DNA from: a virus
Taxonomy: Duplodnaviria; Heunggongvirae; Uroviricota; Caudoviricetes
Direction: 5' to 3' (one strand)
Virus record (IMG/VR): IMGVR_UViG_3300029241_000184
Length of the DNA: 18,645 nt
Shown: positions 1 through 16,964 of the stretch, piece after piece
Layout: each line of letters starts with the position of its first letter
Position numbering within the stretch: the first letter of the stretch is position 1
Translations under genes and position numbers: made by a program
The notes under the pieces: model-generated
Seen by the model: the letters and a program-made list of their open reading frames with translations, nothing else
Told to the model about the DNA's origin: nothing
Databases searched by the model: none

Positions 1-54
1 GCTGATAGAAACAGAAGCCACTGGAGCACCTCAAAAACACCATCATACACTAAA

Positions 55-210
55 TCAGTAAGTTGGCAGCATCACCTCCATATTGTTCTTTTCAGCATAA
101 TCTTTGATATATTCGGACTGATTATGTAAAGAATATTGCTGATGGTCGGTAGACATCCTCAAGTACTGCGCGACCCTAACTCTATGATTTTTGTCATTTT
201 CGCTAGCCAT
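55..210 (-). pseudogene. Short ORF (51 aa) with a serine-recombinase-like N-terminus; probable truncated or frameshifted gene remnant
   Basis: My own translation of the minus strand from ATG at 210 gives MASENDKNHRVRVAQYLRMSTDHQQYSLHNQSEYIKDYAEKNNMEVMLPTY then a stop at 55-57. The R-x-S-T-D-x-Q / YSL.NQ / YAE pattern resembles the catalytic N-terminus of resolvase/invertase-type serine recombinases. Below the 60-aa ORF track threshold; too short to be a functional recombinase. Confidence 0.3.
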
Positions 211-492
211 GCACGAAACCTCATGGATGATTCAATACAATGTAGTGGATAAAATTGATCAAATTTTAACCGAATTCAACTGTTTTATCATTGATTAGAG
301 CGAATTTGGTAGATCTTCGAGGTGTATGATAATCGAGAAGAGATGTGAATTATTTAGCTGATATGACCGACAGCTTTCGTTATGTGGACTCAATGTCCCC
401 ATTTGTAAATGGCTATGCTTAGTCCACATAGGTTAATGGTGTGATTATTAATTCTTTAACTAAATCAAGATAGTTAATCCATCATGGGAGAG

Positions 493-1722
493 TTATGCGG
501 CAATAACTTTGCATTTTTGAGACGAAACATAGTCACTCCACCATTGCATGAGAACCACCCGTTCAGTGAGATACTCTGCACGATTGTAGGCTGCAATTAT
601 TTCATCTTTCTTCGAGTGGGCAAGGGCGGCTTCTAAGACATCAGTCCTAAACTTGCCAGACTCCTCAGCAGCCGTTCTAGCAATGGATCGCATACCGTGA
701 GCTACAAGCTCACCTCCGAAACCCATACGGATTATGGCCGCATTAGCTGTTTGTTCATGCATGTGATTGAGTGGAGCTTTGATACTGGGGAACACCCACT
801 CTCTATGCCCGCTGATGACTTTCATTAAATCCAAAACTCGCAAAGCTTCTTTGCTCAGTGGAACTTTGTGAGGCTTCTTCATTTTCATAAACTCCGCCGG
901 GATGTTCCACATGCCAGTTTCAATATCAATATCTGACCATCTTGTGCGAACAGCTTCACCTGGGCGAACCCATGTGAGAAGTTGCCACTCAATCAGTAGC
1001 CTTGTTTCCAAACGGATAGAAGCATTGTTTAGAGCAACCAAGAAGCGAGGGAGTTCGGAAGGGGGTAATGCTGGCATATTCTGTTTTTTTGGCTTGCTGA
1101 ACCGTTGCCCCAGGTTGTCTGCCGGGTTGAATTCTATGAGTTCTTCTGTTGCTGCATAGCGGAAAATTTCATTCAGGCGGGATATGATGCGGCGAAGTGT
1201 TTCAAGGACACCTCGTTTTTCTATGGGTTCTAAATGCTGTTTAAGCATTTTAGGGCGAATCTCCTTAATTGGGGTATCACCCAATGTGGAAAAGATATTT
1301 CTCTCTAGGCTTCGCCAGATGTCGTTAGCATGATCTTGGGAGATGCCTGACGTTTTGACTTTCTCATCAAGCCACTTCTTGGCTACTGCTTGAAATGTAT
1401 GTTCCGTGGCATCTTTCAGTGCATTGGCTTTTTGGTTGTTATGAACTTGGGGGTCTATACCATTTGTAAGCAACGACAAGTATTCATCACGTAAAGCTCG
1501 TGCCTTCGCAAGTGTAAGGTGAGGATAGGTTCCTAAGCTCACCTTAGTTCGCTTTTTGGTCACAGGCACTGCATATCTGAAATACCAATTTTTCTTCCCT
1601 CCCTTCGCCAGGGGAGCGATTCGCAACAGCAAACCATCGCCGTCAAAAAGGTTAACCTCTTTTTCGGCAGGTTTGGTGCTTTTGATTTCAGTGTCAGTGA
1701 GCTTCTTAGCGATTTTGGCCAT
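493..1722 (-). CDS. int: Tyrosine recombinase, P4-family integrase (integrase of an older, neighbouring island)
   Basis: ORF 493..1803; preferred start is the in-frame ATG at 1722 (MAKIAKKLTDTEIK..., GAGGG about 10 nt upstream). N-terminus KLTDTEIK...DGDGLLL is typical of P4-like integrase arm-binding domains; C-terminus carries HGMRS and AYNRAEY, consistent with the H-x-x-R and catalytic Tyr boxes. Paralogous to the integrase at 11401..12591. Confidence 0.88.
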   Translation of the reverse strand: MAKIAKKLTDTEIKSTKPAEKEVNLFDGDGLLLRIAPLAKGGKKNWYFRYAVPVTKKRTKVSLGTYPHLTLAKARALRDEYLSLLTNGIDPQVHNNQKANALKDATEHTFQAVAKKWLDEKVKTSGISQDHANDIWRSLERNIFSTLGDTPIKEIRPKMLKQHLEPIEKRGVLETLRRIISRLNEIFRYAATEELIEFNPADNLGQRFSKPKKQNMPALPPSELPRFLVALNNASIRLETRLLIEWQLLTWVRPGEAVRTRWSDIDIETGMWNIPAEFMKMKKPHKVPLSKEALRVLDLMKVISGHREWVFPSIKAPLNHMHEQTANAAIIRMGFGGELVAHGMRSIARTAAEESGKFRTDVLEAALAHSKKDEIIAAYNRAEYLTERVVLMQWWSDYVSSQKCKVIAA

Positions 1723-1820
1723 GTTTGGGACCCTCGATTTTAGGACCCATCTTCGTGGGTCCCATTCAGGGTGCCATAACTCGTAGTTCTCAGCAATTCT
1801 CACTAGACTACAATAGACGT

Positions 1821-1854
1821 AAAAAAGCCCGCAGAGCTTGTGCTGTGCGGGCTT
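1821..1854 (-). terminator. Hairpin plus T-run on the minus strand; diverged duplicate of the ssrA terminator
   Basis: aaaaaagcccgcagagcttgtgctgtgcgggctt matches the ssrA terminator at 12708..12742 (aaaaaagcccacagggcttgtgccgtgcgggctt) with three substitutions; GC stem followed by a T-run when read on the minus strand. Confidence 0.5.
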
Positions 1855-1888
1855 AGTAGACTTTACTGAACTTCAGTACATCAATATT

Positions 1889-1910
1889 TGGTGGGCTGGC
1901 GGAGTCTGAC
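1889..1910. other. Degenerate copy of the ssrA 3' end; likely attR of the P4-like satellite and junction between the two tandem islands
   Basis: tggtgggctggcggagtctgac versus the true ssrA 3' end tggtggagctggcgggagttgaac at 12775..12798 (about 20 of 24 positions with two 1-nt gaps), lying the same distance and order from the terminator-like hairpin as in the intact ssrA. Confidence 0.5.
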
Positions 1911-1961
1911 TTTGTCTTTTAATTGTCTGTATTTAATGGTTTTTTATTAAATTGAGATTTT

Positions 1962-1982
1962 GGATATACCTAAGCGTATACC
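1962..1982. repeat. Two GTATACC-type motifs (ggatatacc, cgtatacc); candidate integrase arm-type sites on the far arm
   Basis: Same heptamer family as the four copies at 12614..12661 next to int; acctaagcgtataccaat here versus acctaaacgtataccaat there. Confidence 0.4.
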
Positions 1983-2102
1983 AATTCTGCTTTGTAGGCA
2001 CAAAAATACAGTCATGCTGGTATGACAATTCCAACCCCGTCACAGCTTGTATCCATCTGGTCACACATGACAAAAGCAGGCAACCAATACTAAGAATTTA
2101 CT

Positions 2103-2762
2103 TTACGGCTCTTCGCTATTGGGGTTCTTAACTTTTTCCCATTCAATGCCCAACCCTTTAAATTTTTGTGCAAATGGGATTACTATGAGCGCAACACAAG
2201 CCCCTAATAGTGCCATTCTCTCAGTGGTTAAAAAATTAAATCGTATATCTGCAATTACTATAAGTAATAAGGCGACAGCAAGAAACCAAGTAACTCGTTG
2301 AAAAATATCCATCGTTTGAGATTTTTTCTGCCGAATATCATTTTTCCTAACTGCTGACTGCTCTGCGGTAAGGGCTCGAAAAGTTGGGAAAAGATTGAAA
2401 TCAGATTTAACTAATTCACCCGAATCACTGACTGAATACAGTGAAAATGGCAATGGGTTATTAGGCAGGGAGGATACGGTCACCAAGAAAAGTGGGATTT
2501 TTTCATTTCCAATTGCTTGTTTGTATCTTTTTAATTGATTTAGAGTGTTTTCGCTATGTGCAAATCTGTCTGACTTTATTTCAATAATAGCAAGATATTC
2601 TTTCTTTTCTGGATCTATAATTGCAAAGTCTGGTCTATATGTGTTTTTGCCATCGTTGGAGAAAAATGCTGGTTCGTATAATATAGAATCTTTGGTATAT
2701 CCTAGTGATAATAAGTATTCAGAGAATTTATTTTCCGCCTCTGAATGGTAATTGTTGTCCAT
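2103..2762 (-). CDS. Membrane-anchored protein with an N-terminal restriction-endonuclease-like (PD-(D/E)xK, HsdR-N-like) motif and two C-terminal transmembrane helices; AT-rich cargo gene
   Basis: 219-aa ORF with GAGAGGGA about 7 nt upstream of the ATG at 2762. N-terminal segment LGY...YRPDFAIIDPEKKEYLAIIEIKS carries a D ... E-I-K arrangement as in restriction-endonuclease-fold proteins; C-terminus has two hydrophobic stretches (WFLAVALLLIVIADI and ALLGACVALIVIPFA). Visibly AT-rich compared with the neighbouring primase gene. Confidence 0.7.
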   Translation of the reverse strand: MDNNYHSEAENKFSEYLLSLGYTKDSILYEPAFFSNDGKNTYRPDFAIIDPEKKEYLAIIEIKSDRFAHSENTLNQLKRYKQAIGNEKIPLFLVTVSSLPNNPLPFSLYSVSDSGELVKSDFNLFPTFRALTAEQSAVRKNDIRQKKSQTMDIFQRVTWFLAVALLLIVIADIRFNFLTTERMALLGACVALIVIPFAQKFKGLGIEWEKVKNPNSEEP

Positions 2763-2956
2763 TACAGTCCCTCTCTGCTGTGTGAAAACTAGTGAGCTAA
2801 ATTAATAAGGTAACTAAAAAACGCAAGAGATTCAATTGATTAACGAGTGATAGGTCAAGTCAAGGTCAAACTCGGCGATCATGATGGTTATCTTGTTGAA
2901 TCACAGCCAGACATGATGAATTTCTAGGTTGGAGAAAAAACTTTTTTTCAGGAAAA

Positions 2957-3058
2957 CTGTTCACACTGTTCACACTGTTCACACCGTTGTTTTTGCTTTT
3001 AATTTCATAGTGATACGTTGTGAATGGTTGGTAAACAGTGAACACTTTACTGTTCATT
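2957..3058. repeat. Iteron cluster: three tandem CTGTTCACA repeats (2957..2983) plus inverted and variant copies (gtgaaca 3038..3044, tgttcat 3052..3058); candidate ori-type alpha-binding iterons
   Basis: Tandem 9-bp repeats seen directly; the core TGTTCAC matches the P4 type I iteron octamer TGTTCACC that I recall as the alpha-protein binding site in P4 ori and crr. Lies immediately downstream of the alpha-like gene. Confidence 0.6.
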
Positions 3059-3108
3059 TTTGCCGTTTTGCAGGTAAAAAAAGACCGGCGATTGCCGGTC
3101 AGGGTAGA

Positions 3109-5442
3109 TTATTTTGCTACAGGGTCATCACATTTCGGCAGCCAGTCGGCGTTGCTTTCCTCTCTTAGTGTTAGATTGGTTTGTATGCCCTGATTTTTTC
3201 GGCGCTTCTCATAACTTAGCCCGTACTCTTTCAGCATAGCTGGCAGCCCCTTACCGAACATGGTGAGGCTCAGGGTGTTCCTGTAGCCGTGGGCCTCCAT
3301 ATACGCCAGATAGGCATGATACAGATACAGGCGCGGCTGACGCGGAATGATGTTGGCATTGCCAATATACATTCCCTCAGGCTCCGGCAGTGCTTCCAGA
3401 TAGCCGCAAAAATCAAATGTCGGGTCAGCATCGCGTTTAATACTGAGCGCCTCGTCCGAGTTCTGCTGTGACTGGAGCAGGGCGCGGGCGGTCATCGGGT
3501 CGCTGAACTTCTGCATAAGCTGCCGAACAATCACCGCCAGCTCACGGGCGATTTTATTCTTAAGCTGCGGGTCACGTTCCTCCGGGGCAATCTGTTCCGG
3601 GAAATGCAGAATCACCCGGCGCCGTGAGACACCGCCGCTACGGTCGGTAAAGCGCATCGGGTTATTGTTCACGGCCAGAATCACCGCTGGAATATGGGTG
3701 GAGTACGCATCCTTGTATTTCGGGTCAACGGAGACCGCATCCCCGCCGGTGATGGCCTTGAGTCCTGCCCCGTCACCACTCCATTTTTCCTGGTCAGGCA
3801 GGCGTATCAGCGAGAAGCCAATCAGCGCAGCGCGTTCACGCGGTGATTCCAGCGTTTCGATGGTGGCCGATGTGGCGTTATCTTCCCCGGCGAGCAGGGT
3901 CGCAATTTCGGCCAGAATACTTTTCCCGCTGCCACCCGGCCCGGTCACTTCGAGAAAGAGCTGCCAGTCGTAGCGGTTCGCCAGTACCATAAACAGGGCG
4001 GCAAGTATCACGTCGCGTTTTTCCGGTCGGCCACCGGCGGCACGGTCGAGCCAGCGCCAGAAATCCGGCGCATGGGTTTCCAGCGTTTCGCCCTCCACCG
4101 GTGGGGTAAAATCGACATCACAGAGTGTGCGCAGCCAGTGCGATTTATGATGCGGGCTGAAAGTACCGGTAGCGGTATCGAGTACGCCGTTACGAAAACC
4201 AATCAGACGGCGCGCCGGTGCGTCCTGCTGCGGAATAATCAGTTTCAGGGTCTCCACCACTGAGGCAATTTTCCCCGACGAGAACGGTGCGCGCAGACGC
4301 TGAAATAACCCGGCCACGTCGCGGGCAAAATCCGATGGCGGAATGATTTTCCATATACCGGCCTCATAGCGGGACAGGAGCTGGCCATTTGCGTCCACGG
4401 CCAGCGCTTCGCCGTAATGTTCATGCACCCGCATTGCCTTTTCACTGGTGCTCATGGCGGTAAATTCCGCCTCGCTCATGGTAGTGAAAGGACTGTCAGC
4501 CAGTGGCCGGATGGCGTCATAAATCGCTTTCCGCGTCGCCTCTTCGCCTTTCTGAACGAACGCATCATTCCAGTCACCGAACACCGGCGGCAGGGCAACA
4601 ACACCCTCACAGGCGTCTGCGGCCGCAGCGGCTTTTGTCTGGCCGGCGCCGTTAAGGTCACGGTCGGCGGCGAGGACAATCTGACAGGCCGGGTGTTTCT
4701 GACGGGCAAGGCTCGCCAGAGAAAAGAGGTTCACGGAGGACAGCGCCACCATGACGGTTTCGCTGGTCAGGTGATGTACGGTGAGTGCCGTCGCATAACC
4801 CTCCGCAATCCACAGGCGTTTTCCGGCCTGTTTTTTTCCTCCGATGACATGACATGTCCCTTTGACCTGACCGCCTTTCAGGGTGCGTTTGAGACCGTCA
4901 GCATTAATAAGCTGAAGGTTAACCAGTGCGCCGGTATCCTCATACAGCGGGACAACCACATCCCCGGCGCGGAACGTCACGCCGCCGGTTTTATGCATGA
5001 CTGTCAGTACCGGACATTCCCGGTCGGGGAACCCCTTGCGGGTGAGGTAGGCGTTGTCGGTGGCCGGGCGCGTTTTCTCCAGCAGTCTGACGGCCAGCGC
5101 GGCCGCCGCTTTGCGGTCGGCATCGGTTTCAGCCTCTGCGGCTGCCATCACTTCCGGGGCAACCGGCGACAGATTGCCGGTCACGGCGTTCACCTTCCCG
5201 GCGGCTTCTGACGGGGTCACGCCAAACACTTTTTCTACCAGCTTAAGCCCGTCACCCGCGCCGCACTGATTGCAGAACCACGTCCCGCGCCCTTCTTTAT
5301 CGTCAAAGCGAAAACGGTCAGAGCCGCCACACACCGGACAGGCCTGATGGCGGTTTTTAATCACCTTCACACCCAGCGCCGGAAGAATGCGCGGCCAGTG
5401 GCCGCACGCCTGTTTTACCGTTTCTGTTACGTTCATTTTCAT
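3109..5442 (-). CDS. P4 alpha-type primase/helicase (zinc-binding primase N-terminus plus helicase domain)
   Basis: ORF 3109..5493; preferred start at ATG 5442 (MKMNVTETV..., GAGGGAG upstream) giving 777 aa, the length of P4 alpha. N-terminal CPVCGG...CNQCG zinc-binding motif; Walker A-like GPGGSGKS in the C-terminal half. Confidence 0.9.
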   Translation of the reverse strand: MKMNVTETVKQACGHWPRILPALGVKVIKNRHQACPVCGGSDRFRFDDKEGRGTWFCNQCGAGDGLKLVEKVFGVTPSEAAGKVNAVTGNLSPVAPEVMAAAEAETDADRKAAAALAVRLLEKTRPATDNAYLTRKGFPDRECPVLTVMHKTGGVTFRAGDVVVPLYEDTGALVNLQLINADGLKRTLKGGQVKGTCHVIGGKKQAGKRLWIAEGYATALTVHHLTSETVMVALSSVNLFSLASLARQKHPACQIVLAADRDLNGAGQTKAAAAADACEGVVALPPVFGDWNDAFVQKGEEATRKAIYDAIRPLADSPFTTMSEAEFTAMSTSEKAMRVHEHYGEALAVDANGQLLSRYEAGIWKIIPPSDFARDVAGLFQRLRAPFSSGKIASVVETLKLIIPQQDAPARRLIGFRNGVLDTATGTFSPHHKSHWLRTLCDVDFTPPVEGETLETHAPDFWRWLDRAAGGRPEKRDVILAALFMVLANRYDWQLFLEVTGPGGSGKSILAEIATLLAGEDNATSATIETLESPRERAALIGFSLIRLPDQEKWSGDGAGLKAITGGDAVSVDPKYKDAYSTHIPAVILAVNNNPMRFTDRSGGVSRRRVILHFPEQIAPEERDPQLKNKIARELAVIVRQLMQKFSDPMTARALLQSQQNSDEALSIKRDADPTFDFCGYLEALPEPEGMYIGNANIIPRQPRLYLYHAYLAYMEAHGYRNTLSLTMFGKGLPAMLKEYGLSYEKRRKNQGIQTNLTLREESNADWLPKCDDPVAK

Positions 5443-5456
5443 CGTTGTTTTCTCCC

Positions 5457-5777
5457 TCAGTGCACTACCGGTACGGTGATGTGACGGGCGCAAAGCTCAT
5501 CCATCACGGCCAGCCCGAGAAAGGACAGCGACGGCGCGGCTTTGAGTGGACCGGCTTCCATTAAATCTTCCAGTAATGCACAGGCTATCTGGCGGCCTTT
5601 TTCCTCGCCGTGCTGGCGCAGGTAGAAGCCCTCCAGCTCGGTAGCGATGGCACTTTCCAGCGCGTCGAGGGTGAGGTTCGGGTAGCGGCGCTGGCGTTCG
5701 CACAGGGTCAGCCATGCACAGGCCACGGCGCGACGATACAGCGCGGCGCGTAATACGGGCGGTAATGGCTTTTTCAT
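5457..5777 (-). CDS. Hypothetical protein of the satellite early operon (106 aa)
   Basis: ORF whose start overlaps the stop of the upstream ORF (translational coupling), ending 15 nt before the alpha start; same strand and operon as the alpha gene. No recognisable motif. Confidence 0.55.
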
Positions 5778-6001
5778 ACGTTGCCCTCCCCGGTCAGCCA
5801 GTGCTGATTGCAGCGTTCAACCACGCCGTCGAGCTGGGCGGTCATGAGGTAAATCACGGAGGTGAGCTGTAACTGCTGCGCCGGGTCACGACGAACGGTG
5901 GCGCAGTCCTGTACCTGCATCAGGTCGCTGACGAGCTGGCCGACATTGCGCATATGCTCCAGACATTCGAGGTCACGGGCGGTAATGGTGGTGTGTCTCA
6001 T
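5774..6001 (-). CDS. Hypothetical small protein of the satellite early operon (75 aa)
   Basis: ORF with start/stop overlaps (ATGA) to both neighbours on the same strand, typical of coupled small genes in P4-like early operons. Confidence 0.5.
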
Positions 6002-6192
6002 GCGCGCACCTCCGCAACAGGCAGACGGCCAGCAAATGAGAGGACGTAATCGCGAACGAGGGAAAGGCGTGCGGCGTGCTCATCACCGGCAACGGTGCGG
6101 AGCATACAAATACGGGGTTTACGGTCTGCACGACGAACGGCGGCAAACACAAAAACAAATTGCGGGTGTAACGGGGTGAGGATAGTAGCCAT
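5998..6192 (-). CDS. Hypothetical small protein (64 aa), possibly Icd-like; short form of the 185-aa ORF
   Basis: Internal ATG at 6192 ([19 protein letters not shown]...) preceded by GGAGG about 8 nt upstream; the longer 5998..6555 extension is low-complexity and overlaps the AlpA-like gene, so the short form is preferred. The Icd-like label is a recollection of similar annotations, not verified. Confidence 0.45.
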
Positions 6193-6551
6193 GATGGCAG
6201 CCTCCATTGAGTAGCGGTTACTGCTACCACCGGAAACGCCAATTTCACTGGTGGCAGCCCGAACGGGGTTGGCGTAACCGGCCTCAATGGATACCGGCCA
6301 GCCCGAAGGCTGCCCCGCCCGGACTACCATTATCTTGCTGGAACCATGGTGTATAAAAAGACACCACAACCCGGAAAATGGGTGTGCCTGAGCTACGACG
6401 AAAAAAAAGACGCACGGCGCGTCTGGTGTCGCCATTGAGTTTCGCGGAACGCCAATTCCGGCTGTCGATTTTGCGACAGCGGGAAAACTATACCTGGAAA
6501 CGGCGAAAAGAAGCAAGCCAGAAAAAGGGGCTGAATGCTGAACGGTCATCA

Positions 6552-6818
6552 TCATGCGTCACAGCCCCGGTTGCGTTCGGCAATGCGATCTGCCATCCAT
6601 GCGGTGATTTCAGACTGCGCCCACGCCACGTTTTTACCGCCCAGGCTGATTTGTTTCGGGAAGGCTTCCCGGCTGATGAGGTCATAAATGGTCGACCGGG
6701 ACAGGCCACACAGATGCATCACTTCGGGCAGGCGGATAAAGCGCTCCTGAACGGCATCAGAAACCGGCATCAGCGGCGCGGCAGGGGCAGAAGACGGGGA
6801 AGAAAAAGCGGTGTGCAT
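6552..6818 (-). CDS. alpA: AlpA-family phage transcriptional regulator (small DNA-binding, excisionase-like)
   Basis: [54 protein letters not shown] matches the AlpA/excisionase-like helix-turn-helix family; GAGGT upstream of the ATG at 6818. An alternative start at 6770 (MPVSD) is possible. Confidence 0.8.
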
Positions 6819-7087
6819 CGGGCTACCTCACAAAGTCCATACAGTGCCGGTCGTGTCCGTCCGGCTTCGGGTAGCTCTCTATTTTGTGAATATTTTCCCT
6901 CAGGGCAACAAGTCTTTTTATAGCTCCTCGTCACACAACAGAGCGATTTTTGAACAATGGCAAACGCTGGCAAACAGATGCAAATCAATGCATTACATTG
7001 CAGTAACTTTAAGTACTTTCACTTATATATTTCCTCATAATTAATCGGAAAAAAGACTAAATCCGACACCCCAGGCAAAAAGCAAAA

Positions 7088-7192
7088 GGTGAACAGTAGT
7101 GAACAGTCGGTGAACAGTTACACCCTCAACTGTTCACCCTTTATCTTACTGTATTACTTATCTTTTTCTTTTCAGTGAACAGTAGTGAATAG
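7088..7192. repeat. Second iteron cluster: GGTGAACAGT x3 (7088..7117), inverted TGTTCACC (7131..7138), GTGAACAG (7175..7182) and variant gtgaatag; candidate crr-type alpha-binding iterons in the divergent early/late control region
   Basis: Direct and inverted copies of the same octamer as at 2957..3058, about 4.1 kb away; I recall that P4 ori and crr are separated by about 4.5 kb. Confidence 0.6.
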
Positions 7193-7268
7193 TTATAAGT
7201 AAAAAAACAAACAGTGAGTAAGGTTTTCCTGAGACCTTTCTCTGGCCAGCCGGGTTTTAAGGTCTGTT

Positions 7269-7286
7269 TGTGCCATTTTTGCCACA
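7269..7286 (+). promoter_or_regulatory. TGT-N12-ACA dyad upstream of the sid-like gene; candidate Ogr/Delta activator site of the late promoter
   Basis: TGTgccatttttgccACA about 75-90 nt upstream of the ATG at 7359; P2/P4 late promoters carry a TGT-N12-ACA element near -55. No clear -10 identified, so low confidence. Confidence 0.3.
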
Positions 7287-7358
7287 ACGGCAATGAATCG
7301 TGTTGTTGTGTCTGGCGCGGCAGAATCTCCTCAGGTTGAAACGAAGAGGAGACCCGAC

Positions 7359-8096
7359 ATGACTCAGACCGCTGTTATTCCCGACTACCTTAAACCTGCA
7401 ATGGAACGCCTTGAGACTGCCCGCTCGGCGCATCTCGTCAATGCCAGCCGTATGGATGAAACCACGACGGCCATCAGCCAGGTGCAAACGCAAAAAAAGG
7501 AACTGGAGCAGGAAAACGGCAATGATTCCGGCGCATGGCGCGCCGCCTTTCGTGCCGGTGGTGCTGTCATTACCGACGAGCTGAAACAACGCCATCTGGC
7601 GCGCGTGGCACGGCGGGAACTGGCGCAGGAATGTGACAGCATGAACGAGGTACTGTCTTTTGAGCTGGACAGGCTCAAAGGAGCCTGTGACCGCACGGCC
7701 AGAGCATACCGTCAGGCACATCACGGCGTCCTCAGTCAGTATGCAGAGCATGAACTTGATGCTGCCCTGCGTGAAAGCTGCGGTGCCCTCATCAGAGCAA
7801 TGAAACTCAACATACTGGTTCTGAATAATCCGCTTGCTAATACGACCGGGCATCAGGGATATATCGAACCGGAAAAAGTTGTAATGCAGCAGGTGAAAGC
7901 GTGGCTTGAACAGGCCGTAAAGGGCTGCAATATCCGTCTGACCGATGAACCGGTGCTGTTTAAAACAGGGCTGTCGGCTTCCACACTGCCGCATATGGAA
8001 CATGACGTTGCGACCATGCCCGGTCAGCGAAAAGTCTGGCAGGAAAAAATGTGGGAACGTGAAGCTGACCTGAAAGCACGGGGGTTATTGTCATGA
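7359..8096 (+). CDS. sid: Sid-like protein (P4 capsid size determination / external scaffold), first gene of the late operon
   Basis: ORF 7293..8096 trimmed to ATG 7359 (MTQTAVIPDYLKP..., AAGAGGAG upstream) giving 245 aa, close to P4 Sid (244 aa); position immediately upstream of the Ogr/Delta-like and psu-like genes matches the P4 sid-delta-psu order. Called from size and synteny only. Confidence 0.55.
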   Translation: MTQTAVIPDYLKPAMERLETARSAHLVNASRMDETTTAISQVQTQKKELEQENGNDSGAWRAAFRAGGAVITDELKQRHLARVARRELAQECDSMNEVLSFELDRLKGACDRTARAYRQAHHGVLSQYAEHELDAALRESCGALIRAMKLNILVLNNPLANTTGHQGYIEPEKVVMQQVKAWLEQAVKGCNIRLTDEPVLFKTGLSASTLPHMEHDVATMPGQRKVWQEKMWEREADLKARGLLS

Positions 8097-8338
8097 TGCG
8101 CTGCCCTTTCTGCCGCACGGCGGCACACGTTCGCACCAGCCGCTATATGTCTGACAGCGTCAAAGAGAGTTACCTGCAGTGCCAGAATGTGCACTGCTCG
8201 GCGACATTCAAAACGCATGAGTCCATCTTTGAAGTGATACGTTCGCCGGTCGTCGATGAGAAACCCGCGCCGGTGCCGACAGCCCCCGTGGCACCCCGTC
8301 GGGTAAAAGGCTGCTACAGCTCGCCGTTCCGCCATTAA
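8093..8338 (+). CDS. Ogr/Delta-family zinc-finger late-gene transcriptional activator
   Basis: MMRCPFCRTAAHVRTSRYMSDSVKESYLQCQNVHCSATFKTHES has the C-x2-C ... C-x4-C arrangement and RTSRY / QCQN motifs of P2 Ogr and P4 Delta; start overlaps the stop of the sid-like gene. Confidence 0.85.
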   Translation: MMRCPFCRTAAHVRTSRYMSDSVKESYLQCQNVHCSATFKTHESIFEVIRSPVVDEKPAPVPTAPVAPRRVKGCYSSPFRH

Positions 8339-8354
8339 TCAGGAGAGACAACCC

Positions 8355-8921
8355 GTGACCACTCTGACCTTACAGCAGGCCTATGACGCCTGTCAGACGA
8401 ACAAAACCGCGTGGCTGAACCGTAAAACCGAACTGGCCGCCGCAATGCAGGAATATCAGGAATTATTGCTGGATGACAATGTATCAGGCTCCCGCAGATT
8501 ACAGATGCTGCGTGACCTGATTGACGTAAAAAAATGGGAAGTTAATCAGGCCGCCGGTCGCTACATCTTCTCGCATGAGGAGGTGCAGCGCATCAGCATC
8601 CGTAACCGGCTGCATGATTTTATGCAGCAGAACGGCGCAGAGCTGGCCGCCGCACTGGCACCGGAGCTGATGGGGATTAAAAACCAGCCCGCGATGATAA
8701 AAAATCGCGCGCTTGACCGTTCAGTCTCTTACCTGAGAGAAGCTCTTTCCGTCTGGCTGACCGCTGGAAATGACATTAATTATTCTGCACTGGATAACGA
8801 CATCTTAACGGCCATCGGATACAGGCCTGACGCGCCTTCGCGGGATGATAATCGTGAAAAATTCACCCCTGCACAGAACATGATTTACACCCGTCGACGC
8901 GCCGGACTGGCCGCGCAGTAG
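8355..8921 (+). CDS. psu: Psu-like protein (P4 polarity suppression / capsid decoration)
   Basis: 188 aa (P4 Psu is 190 aa), third gene of the sid-delta-psu type operon; N-terminal region ...QQAYDACQTNKTAWLNRKTELAAA... and QAAGRYI resemble Psu as I recall it. Confidence 0.75.
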   Translation: MTTLTLQQAYDACQTNKTAWLNRKTELAAAMQEYQELLLDDNVSGSRRLQMLRDLIDVKKWEVNQAAGRYIFSHEEVQRISIRNRLHDFMQQNGAELAAALAPELMGIKNQPAMIKNRALDRSVSYLREALSVWLTAGNDINYSALDNDILTAIGYRPDAPSRDDNREKFTPAQNMIYTRRRAGLAAQ

Positions 8922-8967
8922 TCTGTCAAAAAATCCCTGTAAATCCCGTCATTTTTCCCGAATTTAG

Positions 8968-8994
8968 CCATGCATCCCTAAGGTGCATGGTTTT
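8968..8994 (+). terminator. Candidate rho-independent terminator after the psu-like gene
   Basis: Inverted repeat ccatgca / tgcatgg with a 9-nt loop followed by tttt. Confidence 0.4.
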
Positions 8995-9094
8995 GCATGC
9001 GTTTTCCCGACCCTGCACTCCCTGCCAGCGCCAGTTGCGGCGCGGCCTGAGGCCACCTTTGCACCTGCATTAAAAGCGGTCCCTTAAGCGGGCA

Positions 9095-9113
9095 GGCGTG
9101 GCGGGGAGAGCAT
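9095..9113. other. cos-like site (P2/186/P4-type 19-nt cohesive end sequence)
   Basis: ggcgtggcggggagagcat differs at one position from the phage 186 cohesive end GGCGTGGCGGGGAAAGCAT as I recall it, and at three from P2 (GGCGAGGCGGGGAAAGCAC); lies just downstream of psu, where cos sits in P4. Confidence 0.55.
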
Positions 9114-9375
9114 TGCGCGCTAAGTTAAAGATACTTTTAATTTTACAACTACGTTGTGATATCTTTTTAACTCGCTAATTCAATAGTGATAAAACAATTT
9201 TTTATAGCTAATAAGAATCAATTCCAGACTAACAATCGTCAAAAACTATGTTTTGTGAATGGCTATCTAAAAATACTGGCTTAATTATTTGACGTGATCT
9301 AAAGTACTGATGAAATTATTATACTGATTTAATTTTTTAACTGCTAAAAACATTAACAAAAAATAAGGGATTCAC

Positions 9376-11361
9376 ATGGCAGAGAAATCATTTAATGTAG
9401 AAGTACAGATGGATTATTTAGATAAGGTTTCTAAATCTTCTGCATTACAAGCAATCGCTGAGTTGGTATGGAATGCCTTAGATGCTGATGCTGAAAATGT
9501 ATATGTTGATTTGACAGAGTCTGAATTAGGACTCTCGCATATATTTATCAGGGATGATGGTAATGGTATTCCCTATGAGAATGCAGAAAAATTATTTAGT
9601 TCACTGGGCGGATCATGGAAAAAAGACAAGGTTTTATCAGAAAGAAAATCTCGTTTTTTACACGGAAAAGAAGGGCAGGGACGTTTTAAGGCATTCTCAA
9701 TAGGTCGATATATTGAGTGGGATACTACTTATTTACTTGATGATGTATATTATGAATATAAAATAAAAGGAATAGCTGATAATAAGAAAAAGATTTCAGT
9801 TTCTGATAAGGTAGTATCAAGTGAAGTTAAATCAGGAACAGTTGTTTCTATATTGGAATTGGTGAAAAACTTCACCTCTTTGACACCTCAAAAACTATCT
9901 GAGTTTCTTTCCACTACACTTGCTTTATATCTTAGTAAATACCCATCCGTAAAAGTATTTGTAAATCGAGAACAAATCGATCCAACAGCACAGATTTTAT
10001 TTGATACAAGCTATAAATTAGATGATGTAGTTTATTGTGATGAATTACATTCATATGAGTTACAAGTTATTGAATGGAAGTCAGCTAAAGAAAATGAGAT
10101 TTTTTTATGCGACAAAGAAGGTTTTCCCTTAATAAGTTATGAGAAGAAAATTAGAGGGACTGGTACATATTCTTATTCTGTTTATTTGAAGTCTACACAT
10201 TTGACCAAACTTTCCCATGAGGGTACTTTGTCGCTCATGGATTTAGAGCCTTCTTTAAGCCCTGTATTAAATAAAGTCGAAGGTTTGATAAAGGAACACT
10301 TCCGGAAAAGAGATCATGAAAAGTCAAGGGAGTTAATTGATAAATGGAAAAATGAAGGTGTTTATCCGTATGTTGGTAAGGCCGAAAATATTGTTGAGGA
10401 TGCTGAAAGAAAAGTATTCGATATTATGGCCATCAATGTTATAAAATACATACCACAATTTGATAATGGCGATCTTAAACTTAAGAAATTTCAGTTTAAA
10501 TTACTCAAGCATATTGTTGGGAGTTGCCCTGATGACTTGAGAACTATATTAGAGGAGGTTCTCTCGCTTCCTAAGGAAAAACAAGCTGAATTGGCTGAGA
10601 TATTAAGGGATGCCTCATTGTCAGCTGTTATTAGTGTTTCCAAAATAATTACTGATAGATTGAAGTTCATATCTGGGCTTGAGAATGTATTATTTCATCC
10701 GAATACAAGAAAAGTATTCAAAGAGAGAAGTCAGCTTCATAAAATAATGGCGGATAATACATGGTTTTTTGGTGAGTCTTTTACATTGAGTGTCAATGAT
10801 AAGTCACTAACTGAAGTATTAAAAGTACATTTGGAAAAGCAAGGGATTGATATTCCAGTTGATGAGAAAGTAACTAGGATAGATGGTAGTGTAGGTATTG
10901 TTGATTTAATGCTTACTAGAAGTATAGGCAAAAATTACCCAGATGAGCGTGAGCATATTATTATCGAATTAAAGGCACCTAAAGTAAATATAGGTCAATC
11001 AGAAATAGAACAGGTTAAATCCTATGCGTATGCAGTTGCTGAAGACGCAAGATTTAATGGTTTAAAAACAAAGTGGAACTTCTGGGTTATATCGAATGAG
11101 CTCACAACTTATGCTCTCAGAGAATTAAAACAAAAAAACCTTCCTGAAGGTGCAATATATCAAGCTGAAGAAATGACTATTTGGATAAAAACTTGGTCCC
11201 AACTTATTCAAGAGAACAAACATAGATTGGGTTTTCTACAGAATCAGCTTAATATTTCGTATGACCGTGAAGATGGACTACAGTTCTTAAAGCAAAAGTA
11301 TGCTGAGTACACTGAGGGCGTTGTATTTGAAAATGAATCACAGGATGAGTATATAGATTAA
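9376..11361 (+). CDS. 661-aa GHKL-type (HATPase_c, Bergerat-fold) ATPase fused to a C-terminal PD-(D/E)xK-like nuclease motif; candidate single-gene anti-phage defense protein carried as satellite cargo
   Basis: Single uninterrupted ORF with AAGGGA 6 nt upstream of the ATG. N-terminus: E29-x3-N33-A-x-D36-A (N box; E29 codon at 9460), D60-D-G-N-G64-I (G1 box, 9556..9567), G97-K-E-G-Q-G102 (G2 box, 9664..9681). C-terminus: GIVD510LML ... IIIE531LK533 (D at 10903..10905, E-L-K at 10966..10974) in the arrangement of PD-(D/E)xK nucleases. Strongly AT-rich with A/T-ending codons, unlike the flanking P4 core genes. Confidence 0.85.
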   Translation: MAEKSFNVEVQMDYLDKVSKSSALQAIAELVWNALDADAENVYVDLTESELGLSHIFIRDDGNGIPYENAEKLFSSLGGSWKKDKVLSERKSRFLHGKEGQGRFKAFSIGRYIEWDTTYLLDDVYYEYKIKGIADNKKKISVSDKVVSSEVKSGTVVSILELVKNFTSLTPQKLSEFLSTTLALYLSKYPSVKVFVNREQIDPTAQILFDTSYKLDDVVYCDELHSYELQVIEWKSAKENEIFLCDKEGFPLISYEKKIRGTGTYSYSVYLKSTHLTKLSHEGTLSLMDLEPSLSPVLNKVEGLIKEHFRKRDHEKSRELIDKWKNEGVYPYVGKAENIVEDAERKVFDIMAINVIKYIPQFDNGDLKLKKFQFKLLKHIVGSCPDDLRTILEEVLSLPKEKQAELAEILRDASLSAVISVSKIITDRLKFISGLENVLFHPNTRKVFKERSQLHKIMADNTWFFGESFTLSVNDKSLTEVLKVHLEKQGIDIPVDEKVTRIDGSVGIVDLMLTRSIGKNYPDEREHIIIELKAPKVNIGQSEIEQVKSYAYAVAEDARFNGLKTKWNFWVISNELTTYALRELKQKNLPEGAIYQAEEMTIWIKTWSQLIQENKHRLGFLQNQLNISYDREDGLQFLKQKYAEYTEGVVFENESQDEYID

Positions 11362-11371
11362 CATAATTGAA

Positions 11372-11402
11372 AGGCTCGCCAGTTTATTCTGGCGAGTTTC
11401 TT
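11372..11402 (+). terminator. Rho-independent terminator after the cargo gene, convergent with the end of int
   Basis: Stem ctcgccag / ctggcgag (8 bp) with a 6-nt loop, followed by tttctt. Confidence 0.5.
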
Positions 11403-12591
11403 AAAGACTGGATACTTTATTACCCCACCAATTCATTAATTCTATTCTTTGCGGAAGATATATAGAGCGATTATAAGCTCTTCGTACTTCATCTTTATAA
11501 CTATGAGCTAGTGCTGCCTCAATAACATCAGCATTGAATCCTGCTTCATTCATGGCAGTACTGGCTATAGAACGTAAACCATGTGCAACAAGCTTTCCAC
11601 CATAACCAATTCTCTTCAGCGCAGCATTAGCAGTCTGGCTATTCATTGGCAGCTTAGGGTCATTTCTGCTAGGAAAAACATGTTCTCGATGGGCACTGAT
11701 TGGCTTCATCACTTCTAAAATTTCTAATGCTTGAGGAGACAAAGGTACGATGTGCTCTCGTTTAGCCTTCATCCGTTCGGCTGGAATCGTCCAAAGCTTC
11801 GCATCAAGATCGATCTCTTCCCACCGAGCTCCGGAAGCCTCAGAAGGACGCACAAGGGTCAGGAGCTGCCACTCAATTAGACAGCGAGTCGAAACAGATA
11901 GATTCGACATGACTAGAGAACGCATCAGCTTTGGCAATTCCTCTGGCCGCAGCGTCGGCATATTTTGCTTTTTGGGCTTCTCAAAGGCCATCCCAACTCC
12001 TGAGGCTGGGTTCGCATCAATCAGACCCGTGTTTACGGCATAAATCATTATCTCGTTAATGCGTTGCACCAGTCGACGTACAGTCTCAAGCGCCCCACGA
12101 GCTTTGATGGGCTCAAGAGCTTCAACCAGTGTCCGGGCTTTGATTTGCTGAACAGGGATCTCACCGATGGCAGGGAATACATCTTTCTCCAGTGAGCGCC
12201 AAATGTCTTTTGCGTAATCAGGGGTAACGCTTTTGCTTTTGAGCTGGAACCAGTTAGCGGCGACCGTTGAAAAAATACTGTCCAGTGCGATTTGCTGCTG
12301 TTCCTCTGCAACTTCAGCTTGAATCTGTGGGTCGATTCCATTGGCTAATAAGGCAAGGTAATCAGCTCTTAACCCTCGGGCATCAGCAAGCGATAGGGCG
12401 GGGAAGGCTCCGAGTCCCATCATTGTCCGCTGTTTTGTTGCCGGACGTTGATAACGGAAACGCCAGAGCTTTTTGCCGCTGGTTTTCACTATCAGGAAAA
12501 GCCCATCGCCATCATGTAGCGTTAGATCCTTCTCTAGCGCTTTAGCGCGCAGAACTTCGGTGTTGGTCAGGGGGCGTGTTGTCCGTGCCAC
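11401..12591 (-). CDS. int: Tyrosine recombinase, P4-family integrase of the satellite, adjacent to ssrA
   Basis: 396-aa ORF; N-terminal LTLHDGDGLFL...GKKLWRFRY as in P4-type integrases; C-terminal HGLRS and AYNRSIY catalytic boxes; same orientation as ssrA and immediately downstream of it. Confidence 0.92.
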   Translation of the reverse strand: MARTTRPLTNTEVLRAKALEKDLTLHDGDGLFLIVKTSGKKLWRFRYQRPATKQRTMMGLGAFPALSLADARGLRADYLALLANGIDPQIQAEVAEEQQQIALDSIFSTVAANWFQLKSKSVTPDYAKDIWRSLEKDVFPAIGEIPVQQIKARTLVEALEPIKARGALETVRRLVQRINEIMIYAVNTGLIDANPASGVGMAFEKPKKQNMPTLRPEELPKLMRSLVMSNLSVSTRCLIEWQLLTLVRPSEASGARWEEIDLDAKLWTIPAERMKAKREHIVPLSPQALEILEVMKPISAHREHVFPSRNDPKLPMNSQTANAALKRIGYGGKLVAHGLRSIASTAMNEAGFNADVIEAALAHSYKDEVRRAYNRSIYLPQRIELMNWWGNKVSSL

Positions 12592-12613
12592 TGTGGCCGC
12601 TCCTTCATGAATT

Positions 12614-12661
12614 GGTATACGCTTTTAGGTATACATCCTACCGTATACCTAAACGTATACC
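12614..12661. repeat. Four direct copies of a GTATAC(C) motif at 12- to 14-bp spacing between the int start and the ssrA terminator; candidate integrase arm-type sites
   Basis: ggtatac (12614), ggtatac (12628), cgtatacc (12642), cgtatacc (12654); the same motif recurs at 1962..1982 at the other end of the element. Confidence 0.45.
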
Positions 12662-12707
12662 AATAATCACCGGATTTAGCCGGATGCTCTCGGACAACTA
12701 CAGACAC

Positions 12708-12742
12708 AAAAAAGCCCACAGGGCTTGTGCCGTGCGGGCTTT
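12708..12742 (-). terminator. ssrA rho-independent terminator
   Basis: On the minus strand, stem aagcccgcacggcacaagccctgtgggctt followed by tttttt, about 33 nt downstream of the mature tmRNA 3' end. Confidence 0.7.
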
Positions 12743-12774
12743 CAGGATTTCACCGGACGTATCCGGATCATAAT

Positions 12775-13138
12775 GTGGTGGAGCTGGCGGGAGTTGAACC
12801 CGCGTCCGAAATTCCTACATCCTCGGTACTACATGCTTAGTCAGTCTTTATATTCGCTTGCCAGCTGCGGACGGACACGCCACTAACAAACTAGCCTGAT
12901 TAAGTTTTAACGCTTCAACCCCAGGCAGGGCTTCCACGCGATCTCTTTTGGGTTTGACCTCTCTTGATCCCCGTCCTAAGAGCGGAGGCTAGGGAGAGAG
13001 GGCTCTAAGCAGGTTATTAAGCTGCTAAAGCGTAGTTTTCGTCGTTTGCGACTATTTTTTGCGGCTTTTTACGAGGCCAACCGCCCCTCGGCATGCACCT
13101 TGGGTTTCGCAAATCCCGTCGAATCCAGAATCAGCCCC
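12775..13138 (-). ncRNA. ssrA: tmRNA (SsrA, transfer-messenger RNA)
   Basis: Minus strand reads GGGGCTGATTCTGGATTCGACGGG ... GGAGTTGAACCCGCCAGCTCCACCA; internal tag reading frame at 13017..13049 (minus) encodes ANDENYALAA followed by a stop. Length about 363 nt; ends are within a few nt. Confidence 0.95.
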
Positions 13139-13352
13139 AATGTGTAAAGGTAAGTATACCAGATTTATGAGCGCCATGACCAGCCTCAATGGCGTTATCG
13201 TTAAAGATTTAGCACCCATGTAGCCTGATTTTTATTCGATTAAGCAATGGGATGGCAACATTTGTGTCGGATGTGATAGCCAATAAGATGTTCATTCGCG
13301 CCGCCGGAGAGGGAGGCGCGGTGAGGAACTGGTCAATAATTGGAGTGCAGGT

Positions 13353-13835: not shown

Positions 13836-13966
13836 AAGCGTCGTGAATCATCGGTAATCTGAAATCGAAAACACCCCATATCAATCCTGCGGGGGACAAG
13901 GCTCTATCTTAGCATGAACCCGATGTTACCCAGCGCCGGGATAGCGTTTTTTTTACAGCAGGATAA

Positions 13967-14723: not shown

Positions 14724-14730
14724 CAGACAG

Positions 14731-14760
14731 AAAAAAGGTGCTCATTGAGCACCTTTTTTA
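14731..14760. terminator. Bidirectional rho-independent terminator between ratB and bamE
   Basis: aaaaaaggtgctcattgagcacctttttta: GC stem flanked by an A-run and a T-run, so it can terminate on either strand. Confidence 0.6.
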
Positions 14761-14784
14761 ACGTCTTTGAGAGCAACTTTATTA

Positions 14785-16936: not shown

Positions 16937-16964
16937 AGTCGTTTTCCTGTATGAAAAACCATTA

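What the first reader, a model, noticed from the sequence alone, without database searches (positions are those of the whole stretch)
1..1915. Tandem island array at ssrA: second paralogous integrase with a diverged copy of the ssrA terminator and 3' end
The integrase at 493..1722 is clearly related to the satellite integrase at 11401..12591 (parallel N-terminal and catalytic motifs, and similar spurious antisense ORFs in both genes indicate nucleotide-level similarity). It is followed by aaaaaagcccgcagagcttgtgctgtgcgggctt (1821..1854) and tggtgggctggcggagtctgac (1889..1910), which mirror the real ssrA terminator and 3' end at 12708..12798 in the same order and spacing. This is the expected footprint of successive integrations into the same tmRNA gene: the older element's reconstituted ssrA 3' end became attR of the newer one. 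The two related integrases and repeated att-like sequences are potential substrates for deletion or co-excision of the array.
Basis: seen in the sequence. Interest (0 to 1): 0.5.

Follow-up and report, generated by a model that had tools for sequence, protein, structure and literature searches.

The report
Two mobile elements stacked at ssrA
An intact P4-like phage satellite has inserted into the 3' end of the E. coli tmRNA gene in front of an older, IS1-broken island that used the same site, which is a well-documented arrangement and therefore ordinary.

Summary
A second P4-type integrase (493..1722, -) is 51% identical to the satellite integrase. It is followed by a second hairpin terminator and an ssrA-3'-like stretch, in register with the real ssrA end (63/89 matches; shuffle maximum 43).

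Positions 77..1894 are 99.8% identical to E. coli B (REL606/BL21) DNA. There, this integrase, trailer and terminator lie directly against ssrA. Positions 1903..12790 are a complete P4-like satellite that supplies ssrA's present trailer and terminator.

One correction is needed. The "diverged ssrA 3' end" (1889..1910) is not a decayed copy. It is the satellite's hybrid attR:
- CCACCA (1889..1894) comes from the former ssrA end.
- The crossover core is GCTGGCGG (1895..1902).
- From 1903 on it is the satellite's own T-arm mimic. The same sequence ends this satellite in strains that lack the older island.

This attR lacks T357, the known CP4-57-type signature.

The older island is cut by IS1 at 76/77, and in proxy genomes it has no outer att site. 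The two elements carry different arm-type repeats and share no exact word longer than 11 nt, so co-excision or homologous deletion is unlikely.

Equivalent tandem junctions occur in 44 of 5,426 complete E. coli genomes. Tandem arrays at the tmRNA gene have been described since 2003.

The parts
1..76 (.). End of an IS1 copy, cut by the window edge. It truncates the older island.
   Evidence: Hits are annotated as IS1A transposase. The same junction occurs in PSJ-12 and other strains.
79..210 (-). First 44 codons of the older island's large serine recombinase, truncated by IS1.
   Evidence: Pfam Resolvase N-terminal domain, E = 2.8e-5. The full 518-aa gene is present in REL606.
493..1722 (-). 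IntB, the P4-type tyrosine integrase of the older (REL606-type) ssrA island.
   Evidence: 100% identical to REL606 WP_001062342.1. It has the three integrase domains. It is 51% identical to IntS and 48% to K-12 IntA.
1727..1763 (.). Three GGGACCC/GGGTCC repeats in the IntB leader, candidate IntB arm-type sites.
   Evidence: They are conserved in all 5 IntB-type leaders examined while the spacers vary, and are absent from IntS and IntA leaders. That they are binding sites is inferred.
1819..1854 (-). Intrinsic terminator brought by the older island. It terminates ssrA in REL606-type strains and is displaced here.
   Evidence: -20.4 kcal/mol, z = -5.9. It lies directly after ssrA in REL606.
1855..1894 (-). 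Older island's ssrA trailer plus CCACCA (1889..1894), the only remnant of the former ssrA 3' end. T357 is missing.
   Evidence: Identical to REL606 and PSJ-12 up to 1894, except that those strains have the extra A/T.
1895..1902 (.). GCTGGCGG (CCGCCAGC on the ssrA strand), the shared core and crossover region of attR.
   Evidence: Identical at attL (12783..12790), at attR, and in the circular satellite's attP. All sampled attR sites are conserved up to this block and diverge after it.
1903..1990 (.). Satellite P arm: a T-arm mimic (AGTCTGAC...) and a GGTATAC arm-type site (1975..1982).
   Evidence: The same sequence lies at the satellite end in EcPF15 next to ypjA. Motif enrichment is shown.
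1903..12790 (.). Complete P4-like satellite, about 10.9 kb. Components: HsdR_N-like cargo, alpha primase-helicase, DUF5375, icd-like, 88-aa HTH (Vis-like), isrK and C4 RNAs, sid-like, delta, psu, GHKL-ATPase cargo and int.
   Evidence: Pfam, Rfam, RefSeq annotation of the 99.4% identical copy in EcPF15, and a circular 10,182-bp relative, L014.
11401..12591 (-). IntS, the satellite's P4-type integrase.
   Evidence: Three integrase domains. 61% identical to K-12 CP4-57 IntA.
12614..12661 (.). Four GGTATAC repeats in the IntS leader, candidate IntS arm-type sites (P' arm).
   Evidence: There are 6 copies in the window against 0.8 expected, 5 of them at the satellite ends. They are conserved in other satellites and in attP of L014.
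12706..12775 (-). Satellite-borne trailer and intrinsic terminator that now serve ssrA.
   Evidence: -22.6 kcal/mol, z = -4.7. The same trailer and terminator occur in EcPF15 and in the circular satellite L014.
12776..13138 (-). Intact ssrA (tmRNA), with T357 present. Its last roughly 7 to 15 nt were re-supplied by the satellite.
   Evidence: ARAGORN finds the tag ANDENYALAA. Rfam RF00023 scores 296.6 bits over the full length.

Best explanation
The locus records two successive site-specific integrations into the 3' end of ssrA by two related P4-type tyrosine integrases.

First, a REL606-type island occupied ssrA. It carries IntB, a large serine recombinase and two ParB-like genes, and it supplied ssrA's trailer and terminator. 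IS1 later cut this island.

Second, a circular P4-like satellite recombined with that ssrA. Its attP carries an imperfect mimic of the last ~24 nt of tmRNA (TTCAGACTCC-GCCAGC(T)CCACCA). Exchange took place in the 8-bp block CCGCCAGC.

The outcome has three parts:
- ssrA keeps its body and receives a fresh CCACCA, trailer and terminator from the satellite (attL, 12776..12790).
- The previous CCACCA, trailer, terminator and intB are displaced 10.9 kb away.
- The displaced block is fused to the satellite's mimic arm (attR, 1889..1910).

Each element carries its own arm-type repeats: GGTATAC for IntS and GGGACCC for IntB. The two recombination modules share a core but are probably orthogonal. Only the satellite still has both att sites and can excise.

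Shown here: the architecture, the junction position and the provenance of each side. Inferred: the order of events, the arm-site function and the orthogonality.
For: - Provenance of the left part: 77..1894 matches REL606, BL21 and E. coli C at 99.8%, directly adjacent to ssrA. IntB is 100% identical to the REL606 protein.
- Satellite-free counterpart: PSJ-12 has the same IS1-cut island directly at an intact ssrA, without the satellite.
- Satellite mobility: the same satellite (99.2-99.4% identical over 1888/1894..18645, flanks included) sits at ssrA next to ypjA in EcPF15 and other strains, with no second integrase and the same far-end sequence GCTGGCGGAGTCTGAC....
- attP: a circular 10,182-bp relative carries attP in the order int, terminator, trailer, TGGTGGAGCTGGCGGAGTCTGAA, primase.
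- Junction position: in 60 evenly sampled attR sites from 261 genomes, the satellite arm is conserved exactly through CCGCCAGC and variation starts immediately after it.
- Recurrence: the same tandem architecture is found in YZ22PE165 and Tig228. 44 genomes cover at least 80% of the junction.
- Arm repeats are specific to each integrase type and conserved.
- Literature: tandem arrays at tRNA and tmRNA genes arise this way (PMC7192596; PMC4383910).
Against: - No complete E. coli genome in the collection holds the whole window contiguously; the best covers 90% and has the satellite alone. This exact combination therefore rests on this assembly only.
- attR lacks T357 although REL606 and PSJ-12 have it. 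A simple exchange inside CCGCCAGC would have carried T357 into attR, so an extra step is needed: a later 1-nt loss, a target already lacking T, or an exchange extending past position 357.
- The order of integration cannot be proven from a single genome.
Confidence: 0.9

Rival explanations
1. One reading: the whole of 1889..1910 is the older element's reconstituted ssrA 3' end, which diverged by mutation once it was no longer under selection.
For: It resembles the ssrA end (20 of 24 aligned columns) and lies at the right distance from the older terminator.
Against: - REL606 and PSJ-12 carry a perfect ssrA end at this position.
- The 'diverged' part from 1895 onward is identical to the satellite's far end in EcPF15, where no older integrase exists.
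- It is also conserved in attP of the circular satellite L014.
- Variation across 60 attR sites starts only after CCGCCAGC.
Confidence: 0.04
2. Reverse order: the satellite was resident first, and the REL606-type island later integrated into the core retained at the satellite's attR.
For: A second element can integrate into either regenerated core (PMC7192596). This order would explain why the T-less core precedes the REL606 trailer.
Against: - The island is IS1-truncated and has no recognisable outer ssrA fragment or GGGACCC arm cluster in proxy genomes.
- The intB region is present in 1,193 of 5,426 genomes. It abuts ssrA directly in every satellite-free genome examined: REL606, PSJ-12, and the B and C strains whose match includes ssrA.
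- The identical IS1-cut version abuts an intact ssrA in PSJ-12.
- The satellite is the element seen in several different backgrounds at more than 99% identity.
Confidence: 0.05
3. Local duplication of the int-to-ssrA-end segment followed by divergence, or an assembly chimera.
For: Two paralogous segments lie in the same order and orientation. The whole window is not found in any complete genome.
Against: - Each copy has near-identical orthologues elsewhere, while the two copies are only 57% identical to each other.
- The junction has the canonical att structure and recurs in 44 genomes.
Confidence: 0.01

Closest known systems
Tandem arrays of integrative elements at the tmRNA gene (Williams 2003, J Bacteriol 185:1059, cited but not readable here; Islander and TIGER resources, PMC4383910 and PMC7192596)
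   Same: There is an intact tDNA at one end. Each element has its own integrase next to a tDNA-derived core. The displaced tDNA 3' fragment marks the internal boundary. The newest element lies closest to the gene.
   Different: Nothing differs in kind. Here the distal element has lost its outer end, so the array is one live element plus one remnant.
CP4-57 cryptic P4-like prophage of E. coli K-12 (IntA, attR pseudogene psaA)
   Same: The target is the same (ssrA 3' end) and the core is the same. The attR form CGCCAGC-CCACCA, lacking T357, is the same. IntS is 61% identical to IntA. The leader has the same layout: trailer, terminator, then three arm-like repeats.
   Different: The window's element is a compact, complete P4-like satellite of 10.9 kb with psu, delta, sid and alpha, whereas CP4-57 is a 22-kb degraded island. 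The arm repeats differ (GGTATAC versus AGGCCCA). Here attR abuts another integrase island rather than the ypjA flank.
E. coli B (REL606/BL21) ssrA island: integrase WP_001062342.1, serine recombinase and two ParB-like proteins
   Same: Positions 77..1894 of the window are this island's ssrA-proximal end at 99.8% identity, and the integrase is 100% identical.
   Different: In the window the island is separated from ssrA by the satellite, and IS1 cuts it inside the recombinase gene, as in PSJ-12.
P4-like satellites with defence hotspots (Rousset 2022, PMC9122126; Moura de Sousa & Rocha 2021, PMC8628076)
   Same: The gene order is that of P4-like satellites, with a variable cargo gene between psu and int (9376..11361). 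Tandem or pseudogenised neighbours are noted for this family.
   Different: The cargo is a GHKL-type ATPase with no confident PADLOC system match. Its function was not examined.

Membership tests
Tandem tDNA island array (Islander/TIGER definition) | An intact target tDNA at the proximal end. | tested here: met
   tmRNA at 12776..13138, full-length Rfam match of 296.6 bits, tag ANDENYALAA.
Tandem tDNA island array (Islander/TIGER definition) | Each element has its own tyrosine integrase gene. | tested here: met
   Two full-length integrases, each with Arm-DNA-bind_3, Phage_int_M and Phage_integrase domains.
Tandem tDNA island array (Islander/TIGER definition) | Each element has its own displaced tDNA fragment in the same orientation as the tDNA. 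| tested here: inconclusive
   Met for the satellite: 1889..1910, same orientation. The older island's outer fragment would lie left of the window. None was found in proxy genomes L001, L003, L006 and L007.
P4-like satellite | The core gene set: int, alpha primase-helicase, psu, delta, sid, and an immunity region with C4 RNA. | tested here: met
   Psu Pfam E = 1.4e-87; alpha has Zn_Ribbon_Prim, Toprim_3, D5_N and Pox_D5. C4 and isrK RNAs are found. Delta, Icd-like and HTH come from RefSeq annotation of the 99.4% identical copy. Sid is annotated only in the related satellite of Tig228; the window ORF 7359..8096 has no Pfam hit.
P4-like satellite | A cos site and helper (P2-like) dependence. | not tested
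   The cos site was not searched for. Helper dependence is not testable with these tools.
P4-type (IntA/CP4-57-like) ssrA-targeting integrase module | The core lies at the extreme 3' end of ssrA, and attP restores the gene. | tested here: met
   attL, attR and attP share CCGCCAGC(T)CCACCA. The circular relative L014 carries attP.
P4-type (IntA/CP4-57-like) ssrA-targeting integrase module | Arm-type repeats on both sides of the core. | tested here: met
   GGTATAC occurs four times next to intS and once at the far end. The window holds 6 copies against 0.8 expected. Binding itself was not tested.
Excision-coupled tmRNA switch (CP4-57 / CP4So type) | The attR core lacks T357 (CGCCAGC-CCACCA). | tested here: met
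   Window attR reads CTCCGCCAGC-CCACCA, matching Table 1 of PMC10107115.
Excision-coupled tmRNA switch (CP4-57 / CP4So type) | Excision actually leaves ssrA lacking T357 and inactivates trans-translation. | not testable with these tools
   This needs an excision assay. No complete E. coli genome carries ssrA lacking T357 joined to the REL606 trailer.

The most novel reading that the evidence does not exclude
Because attR lacks T357, excision of this satellite with exchange inside CCGCCAGC would leave ssrA without the G3:U wobble partner, now followed by the older island's trailer and terminator. That would switch the cell from trans-translation to ArfA rescue, as shown for CP4-57 in K-12.

The tandem context adds a before-and-after pair. 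The same REL606 trailer carries T357 when it abuts ssrA (REL606, PSJ-12) and lacks it when a satellite is in front. T357 was absent at all three junctions examined that have the REL606 trailer or its close variant (window, Tig228, YZ22PE165).

This would mean that loss of T357 is coupled to integration, or is selected soon after it as a lock against curing, rather than being slow decay.
Probability: 0.3. Interest if true: 0.35.

Novelty: already known. Interest (0 to 1): 0.15.

Why it matters
Mostly this matters for correct annotation.
- The boundary between the two elements is at 1895..1902.
- ssrA's present terminator belongs to the satellite.
- The second integrase belongs to a dead remnant, not to a co-mobilisable partner.

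It is also a clean natural illustration of how each ssrA-targeting element brings its own gene end, trailer, terminator and private arm sites, which lets several elements queue at one gene.

The only forward-looking point is the attR that lacks T357. If excision transfers it to ssrA, curing this satellite would inactivate tmRNA.

Tried and rejected
1. Outer att site of the older island. I looked for an outer ssrA fragment or GGGACCC arm cluster in proxy genomes (REL606, PSJ-12, Tig228, YZ22PE165). The only hits were ileY tRNA and chance 8-10-mers inside IS1.

2. Scan of genome contigs with ACTCCGCCAGC(N)CCACCA. The aim was to tabulate T against no-T att sites across species. Only one relevant locus emerged, in Cedecea neteri. 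That scan was wasted.

3. Whether attP itself lacks T357.
- L014, a circular permutation of a satellite, has T.
- L015 lacks T, but its right side does not carry an integrase next to the core. It is probably an integrated or tandem junction, so it is not evidence about attP.
- The origin of the T loss remains open.

4. Natural excisants. I searched for an ssrA body joined to a T-less core and the REL606 trailer. None exists among 5,426 genomes.

5. PADLOC on the satellite cargo and the older island's recombinase and ParB genes gave only weak REase/MTase-like hits.

6. Williams 2003 (PMC142792) could not be read. It is cited only through papers that cite it.
Full report
**What is in the window**

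The window is the E. coli ssrA neighbourhood.
- ssrA (tmRNA) lies on the minus strand at 12776..13138. It is intact: ARAGORN finds the tag ANDENYALAA and Rfam RF00023 scores 296.6 bits over the full length.
- To its right are the core genes smpB, ratA, yfjF, bamE, recN, nadK and grpE, named from 99%-identical annotated genomes.
- To its left, from 12790 down to 1903, lies a complete P4-like satellite. Its parts are:
  - the integrase IntS (11401..12591, -);
  - a GHKL-ATPase cargo gene in the psu-int hotspot (9376..11361);
  - psu, delta and a sid-like ORF;
  - the C4 and isrK RNAs (6247..6334 and 6403..6480);
  - an 88-aa HTH protein and an Icd-like gene;
  - the alpha primase-helicase (3109..5493);
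  - a small HsdR_N-like gene (2103..2762).

- The finding's region, 1..1915, lies just beyond the satellite's far end.

**Check of the observation**

- The ORF at 493..1722 (-) is a full-length tyrosine integrase with the same three Pfam domains as IntS. It is 51% identical to IntS over about 400 residues.
- The leaders upstream of the two integrase genes are homologous. The 89-nt stretches 1806-1894 and 12693-12781 match at 71% without gaps. That is 63 matches, against a maximum of 43 in 300 shuffles.
- The offset is 10,887 nt in the leader and 10,884 nt inside the genes, so order and spacing are preserved.
- Each leader contains a strong hairpin followed by a U-run on the ssrA strand, at -20.4 and -22.6 kcal/mol with z = -5.9 and -4.7.
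- One claim is too strong. At the nucleotide level the two genes are only about 57% identical, and the longest exact word shared by the two regions is 11 nt.

**Provenance of the left part**

- Positions 77..1909 match E. coli B strains (REL606, BL21), E. coli C and many others at 99.8%.
- In REL606 this DNA lies directly against ssrA. The order there is integrase WP_001062342.1, a 518-aa serine recombinase, two ParB-like genes, then IS1.
- The window's integrase is 100% identical to the REL606 protein.
- The intB region is present in 1,193 of 5,426 complete E. coli genomes, in 537 of them at 99% identity or better.
- In the window, IS1 (1..76) cuts the recombinase gene after codon 44.
- PSJ-12 and several other strains have the same IS1-cut island directly at ssrA, without any satellite. 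PSJ-12's ssrA is intact, with T357.
- In PSJ-12 the IS1 is followed by a partial ParB gene, a second ParB gene, IS3 and then ileY.

**Provenance of the right part, and the junction**

The satellite together with the right-hand core genes (1888/1894..18645) is 99.2-99.4% identical to loci in EcPF15, 980-2 and Z226-1. In EcPF15, the one whose flanks I examined, the satellite is the only element at ssrA and its far end abuts ypjA.

A four-way alignment locates the junction.
- The window follows REL606 up to TGGTGG (1889..1894).
- It follows EcPF15 from GCTGGCGG (1895) onward.

Written in ssrA orientation:
- attL: ...GTTCAACTCCCGCCAGCTCCACCA | CATTATGATCC..., followed by the satellite trailer and terminator.
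- attR: ...AAAGTCAGACTCCGCCAGC-CCACCA | AATATTGATG..., followed by the REL606 trailer, terminator and intB.
- REL606 ssrA end: ...GTTCAACTCCCGCCAGCTCCACCA | AATATTGATG...

So the 'diverged copy of the ssrA 3' end' is a hybrid site.
- The T-arm-like part (GTCAGACTCC-GCCAGC) is the satellite's own imperfect mimic of tmRNA.
- Only CCACCA and everything beyond it belonged to the former ssrA end.

Three further results support this.
- A 10,182-bp IMG/VR contig (L014) is an exact circular permutation of a related satellite. Its last base continues into its first in window coordinates, 5314 to 5315. It carries the predicted attP in the order int, terminator, trailer, TGGTGGAGCTGGCGGAGTCTGAA, primase.
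- In 60 attR sites sampled evenly from 261 E. coli genomes with the commonest satellite arm, every site is conserved through CCGCCAGC and variation begins immediately after it. This places the exchange in or at that 8-bp block.
- K-12's annotation of CP4-57 and its 14-nt psaA pseudogene uses the same boundaries.

**How it works**

Both integrases belong to the P4/IntA group that targets the last nucleotides of ssrA. IntS is 61% identical to K-12 IntA and IntB is 48% identical.

Integration of the circular satellite into an ssrA already occupied by the REL606-type island had three effects.
- It replaced the gene's last bases, trailer and terminator with satellite copies.
- It pushed the previous trailer, terminator and intB 10.9 kb away.
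- As a consequence, the 'real' terminator at about 12706..12743 is satellite DNA, and the terminator at 1819..1854 is the one that serves ssrA in B strains.

This is the textbook route to tandem arrays at tRNA and tmRNA genes (PMC7192596; PMC4383910; both cite Williams 2003, which I could not read). The same architecture, a P4-like satellite followed by a REL606-type integrase island, is present in YZ22PE165 and Tig228. 44 of 5,426 complete genomes cover at least 80% of the junction segment.

**Order of events**

The satellite is most likely the newcomer, for four reasons.
- It is proximal to ssrA.
- It occurs at more than 99% identity in different backgrounds.
- The identical IS1-cut island abuts an intact ssrA in PSJ-12.
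- The older island has no detectable outer ssrA fragment or arm cluster in REL606, PSJ-12, Tig228 or YZ22PE165.

The reverse order, in which the island inserted into the satellite's attR core, is possible in principle but is much less parsimonious.

**Can the array delete or co-excise?**

I find no support for this.
- Homologous recombination between the paralogous segments lacks a substrate, because the longest identical word is 11 nt.
- Site-specific cross-reaction is unlikely because the leaders carry different repeats at homologous positions.
  - GGTATAC occurs four times next to intS and once at the satellite's far end. The window has 6 copies against 0.8 expected.
  - GGGACCC/GGGTCC occurs three times next to intB.
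  - AGGCCCA occurs three times next to K-12 intA.
- Each repeat set is conserved within its integrase type in the other genomes examined (four other IntB-type leaders, three other satellites), while the spacers drift.
- Both proteins have an arm-binding domain, so these repeats are very probably arm-type sites private to each integrase. That function is inferred, not tested.
- The satellite has both arms and both cores and should be excisable on its own. The older island appears immobile.

**The missing T**

The attR core reads CGCCAGC-CCACCA. It lacks T357, the U of the G3:U wobble pair needed for charging by AlaRS.
- This is exactly the form tabulated for CP4-57, CP4So and other P4-integrase elements. 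Excision of CP4-57 transfers it to ssrA and inactivates trans-translation (PMC10107115).
- The tandem array gives a before-and-after comparison. The REL606 trailer has T357 in REL606 and PSJ-12 but lacks it here and in Tig228.
- Across the other tandem junctions examined, T is absent in 4, present in 2, and 2 carry larger deletions.
- In the 60-site sample, about a quarter lack only T, about a fifth retain T, and the rest carry larger deletions that start at the same point.
- I could not decide whether the loss happens at integration, before it, or afterwards.
- No complete genome carries an ssrA body joined to the T-less core and the REL606 trailer, so no persisting excisant of this type is seen.

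**Verdict**

Two details need correcting.
- The 22-nt 'diverged ssrA end' is the satellite's hybrid attR, not a decayed gene end.
- The suggested deletion or co-excision potential is not supported.

The phenomenon, the element families and even the T-less attR are all documented, so novelty is low.

Noticed in passing
window 1889..1902 (attR core); compare 12776..12790: attR lacks T357 of tmRNA (CGCCAGC-CCACCA). This is the same lesion that CP4-57 excision transfers to ssrA in K-12. The REL606-type trailer next to it carries T357 in strains without a satellite.
   Followed up: partly
window 12614..12661, 1975..1982 and 1727..1763; L005 1570..1659: Three related ssrA-targeting integrases each have their own short repeat at homologous leader positions: GGTATAC for IntS, GGGACCC for IntB and AGGCCCA for K-12 IntA. 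This suggests private arm-site specificities on a shared core.
   Followed up: partly
window 9376..11361 (+): A 661-aa protein with an N-terminal GHKL ATPase domain (HATPase_c_3) and a weak C-terminal HsdR_N-like match sits in the psu-int defence hotspot of the satellite. It has no confident PADLOC system match.
   Followed up: partly
window 2103..2762 (-): A 219-aa HsdR_N_2-domain protein lies between the primase gene and the satellite's far end. This may be a second cargo position. It has no PADLOC hit.
   Followed up: partly
window 1..210: An IS1 end (1..76) truncates a large serine recombinase gene after 44 codons. The same insertion is present in PSJ-12 and several other strains, where it is followed by a partly deleted ParB-like gene.
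   Followed up: yes
L001 2799..6134 (REL606): The older island's cargo is a 518-aa serine recombinase plus two adjacent 298-aa ParB/Spo0J-like proteins, of unknown function. One ParB-like protein has a weak MTase_II-like PADLOC hit.
   Followed up: no
window 381..430: An imperfect 24-nt inverted repeat (75% complementary, 2-nt loop) lies just downstream of the intB stop codon. It has no U-run and its role is unknown.
   Followed up: no
L014 (IMGVR_UViG_2600255186_000010), 7633..7667: A 10,182-bp contig is a circular permutation of a related P4-like satellite with an intact attP that contains T357. This points to an excised or plasmid-state satellite, or a collapsed tandem.
   Followed up: partly
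L068 (Cedecea neteri NZ_BCTL01000069.1), 2995..3011: A satellite-type arm and a T-less core are followed by a CP4-57-type trailer (CCACCAAAACTCTCCATCGGTGATTACC...). This indicates a similar tandem or attP junction in another genus.
   Followed up: no
L002 ~8000 (EcPF15) versus L005 23473..23486 (K-12): The ancestral flank before ypjA keeps progressively shorter remnants of CCACCA: K-12 has CCGCCAGC-CCACCAATCATG and EcPF15 has CCGCCAGC-----CAATCATG. Across E. coli, attR right halves form a nested deletion series starting right after CCGCCAGC.
   Followed up: partly
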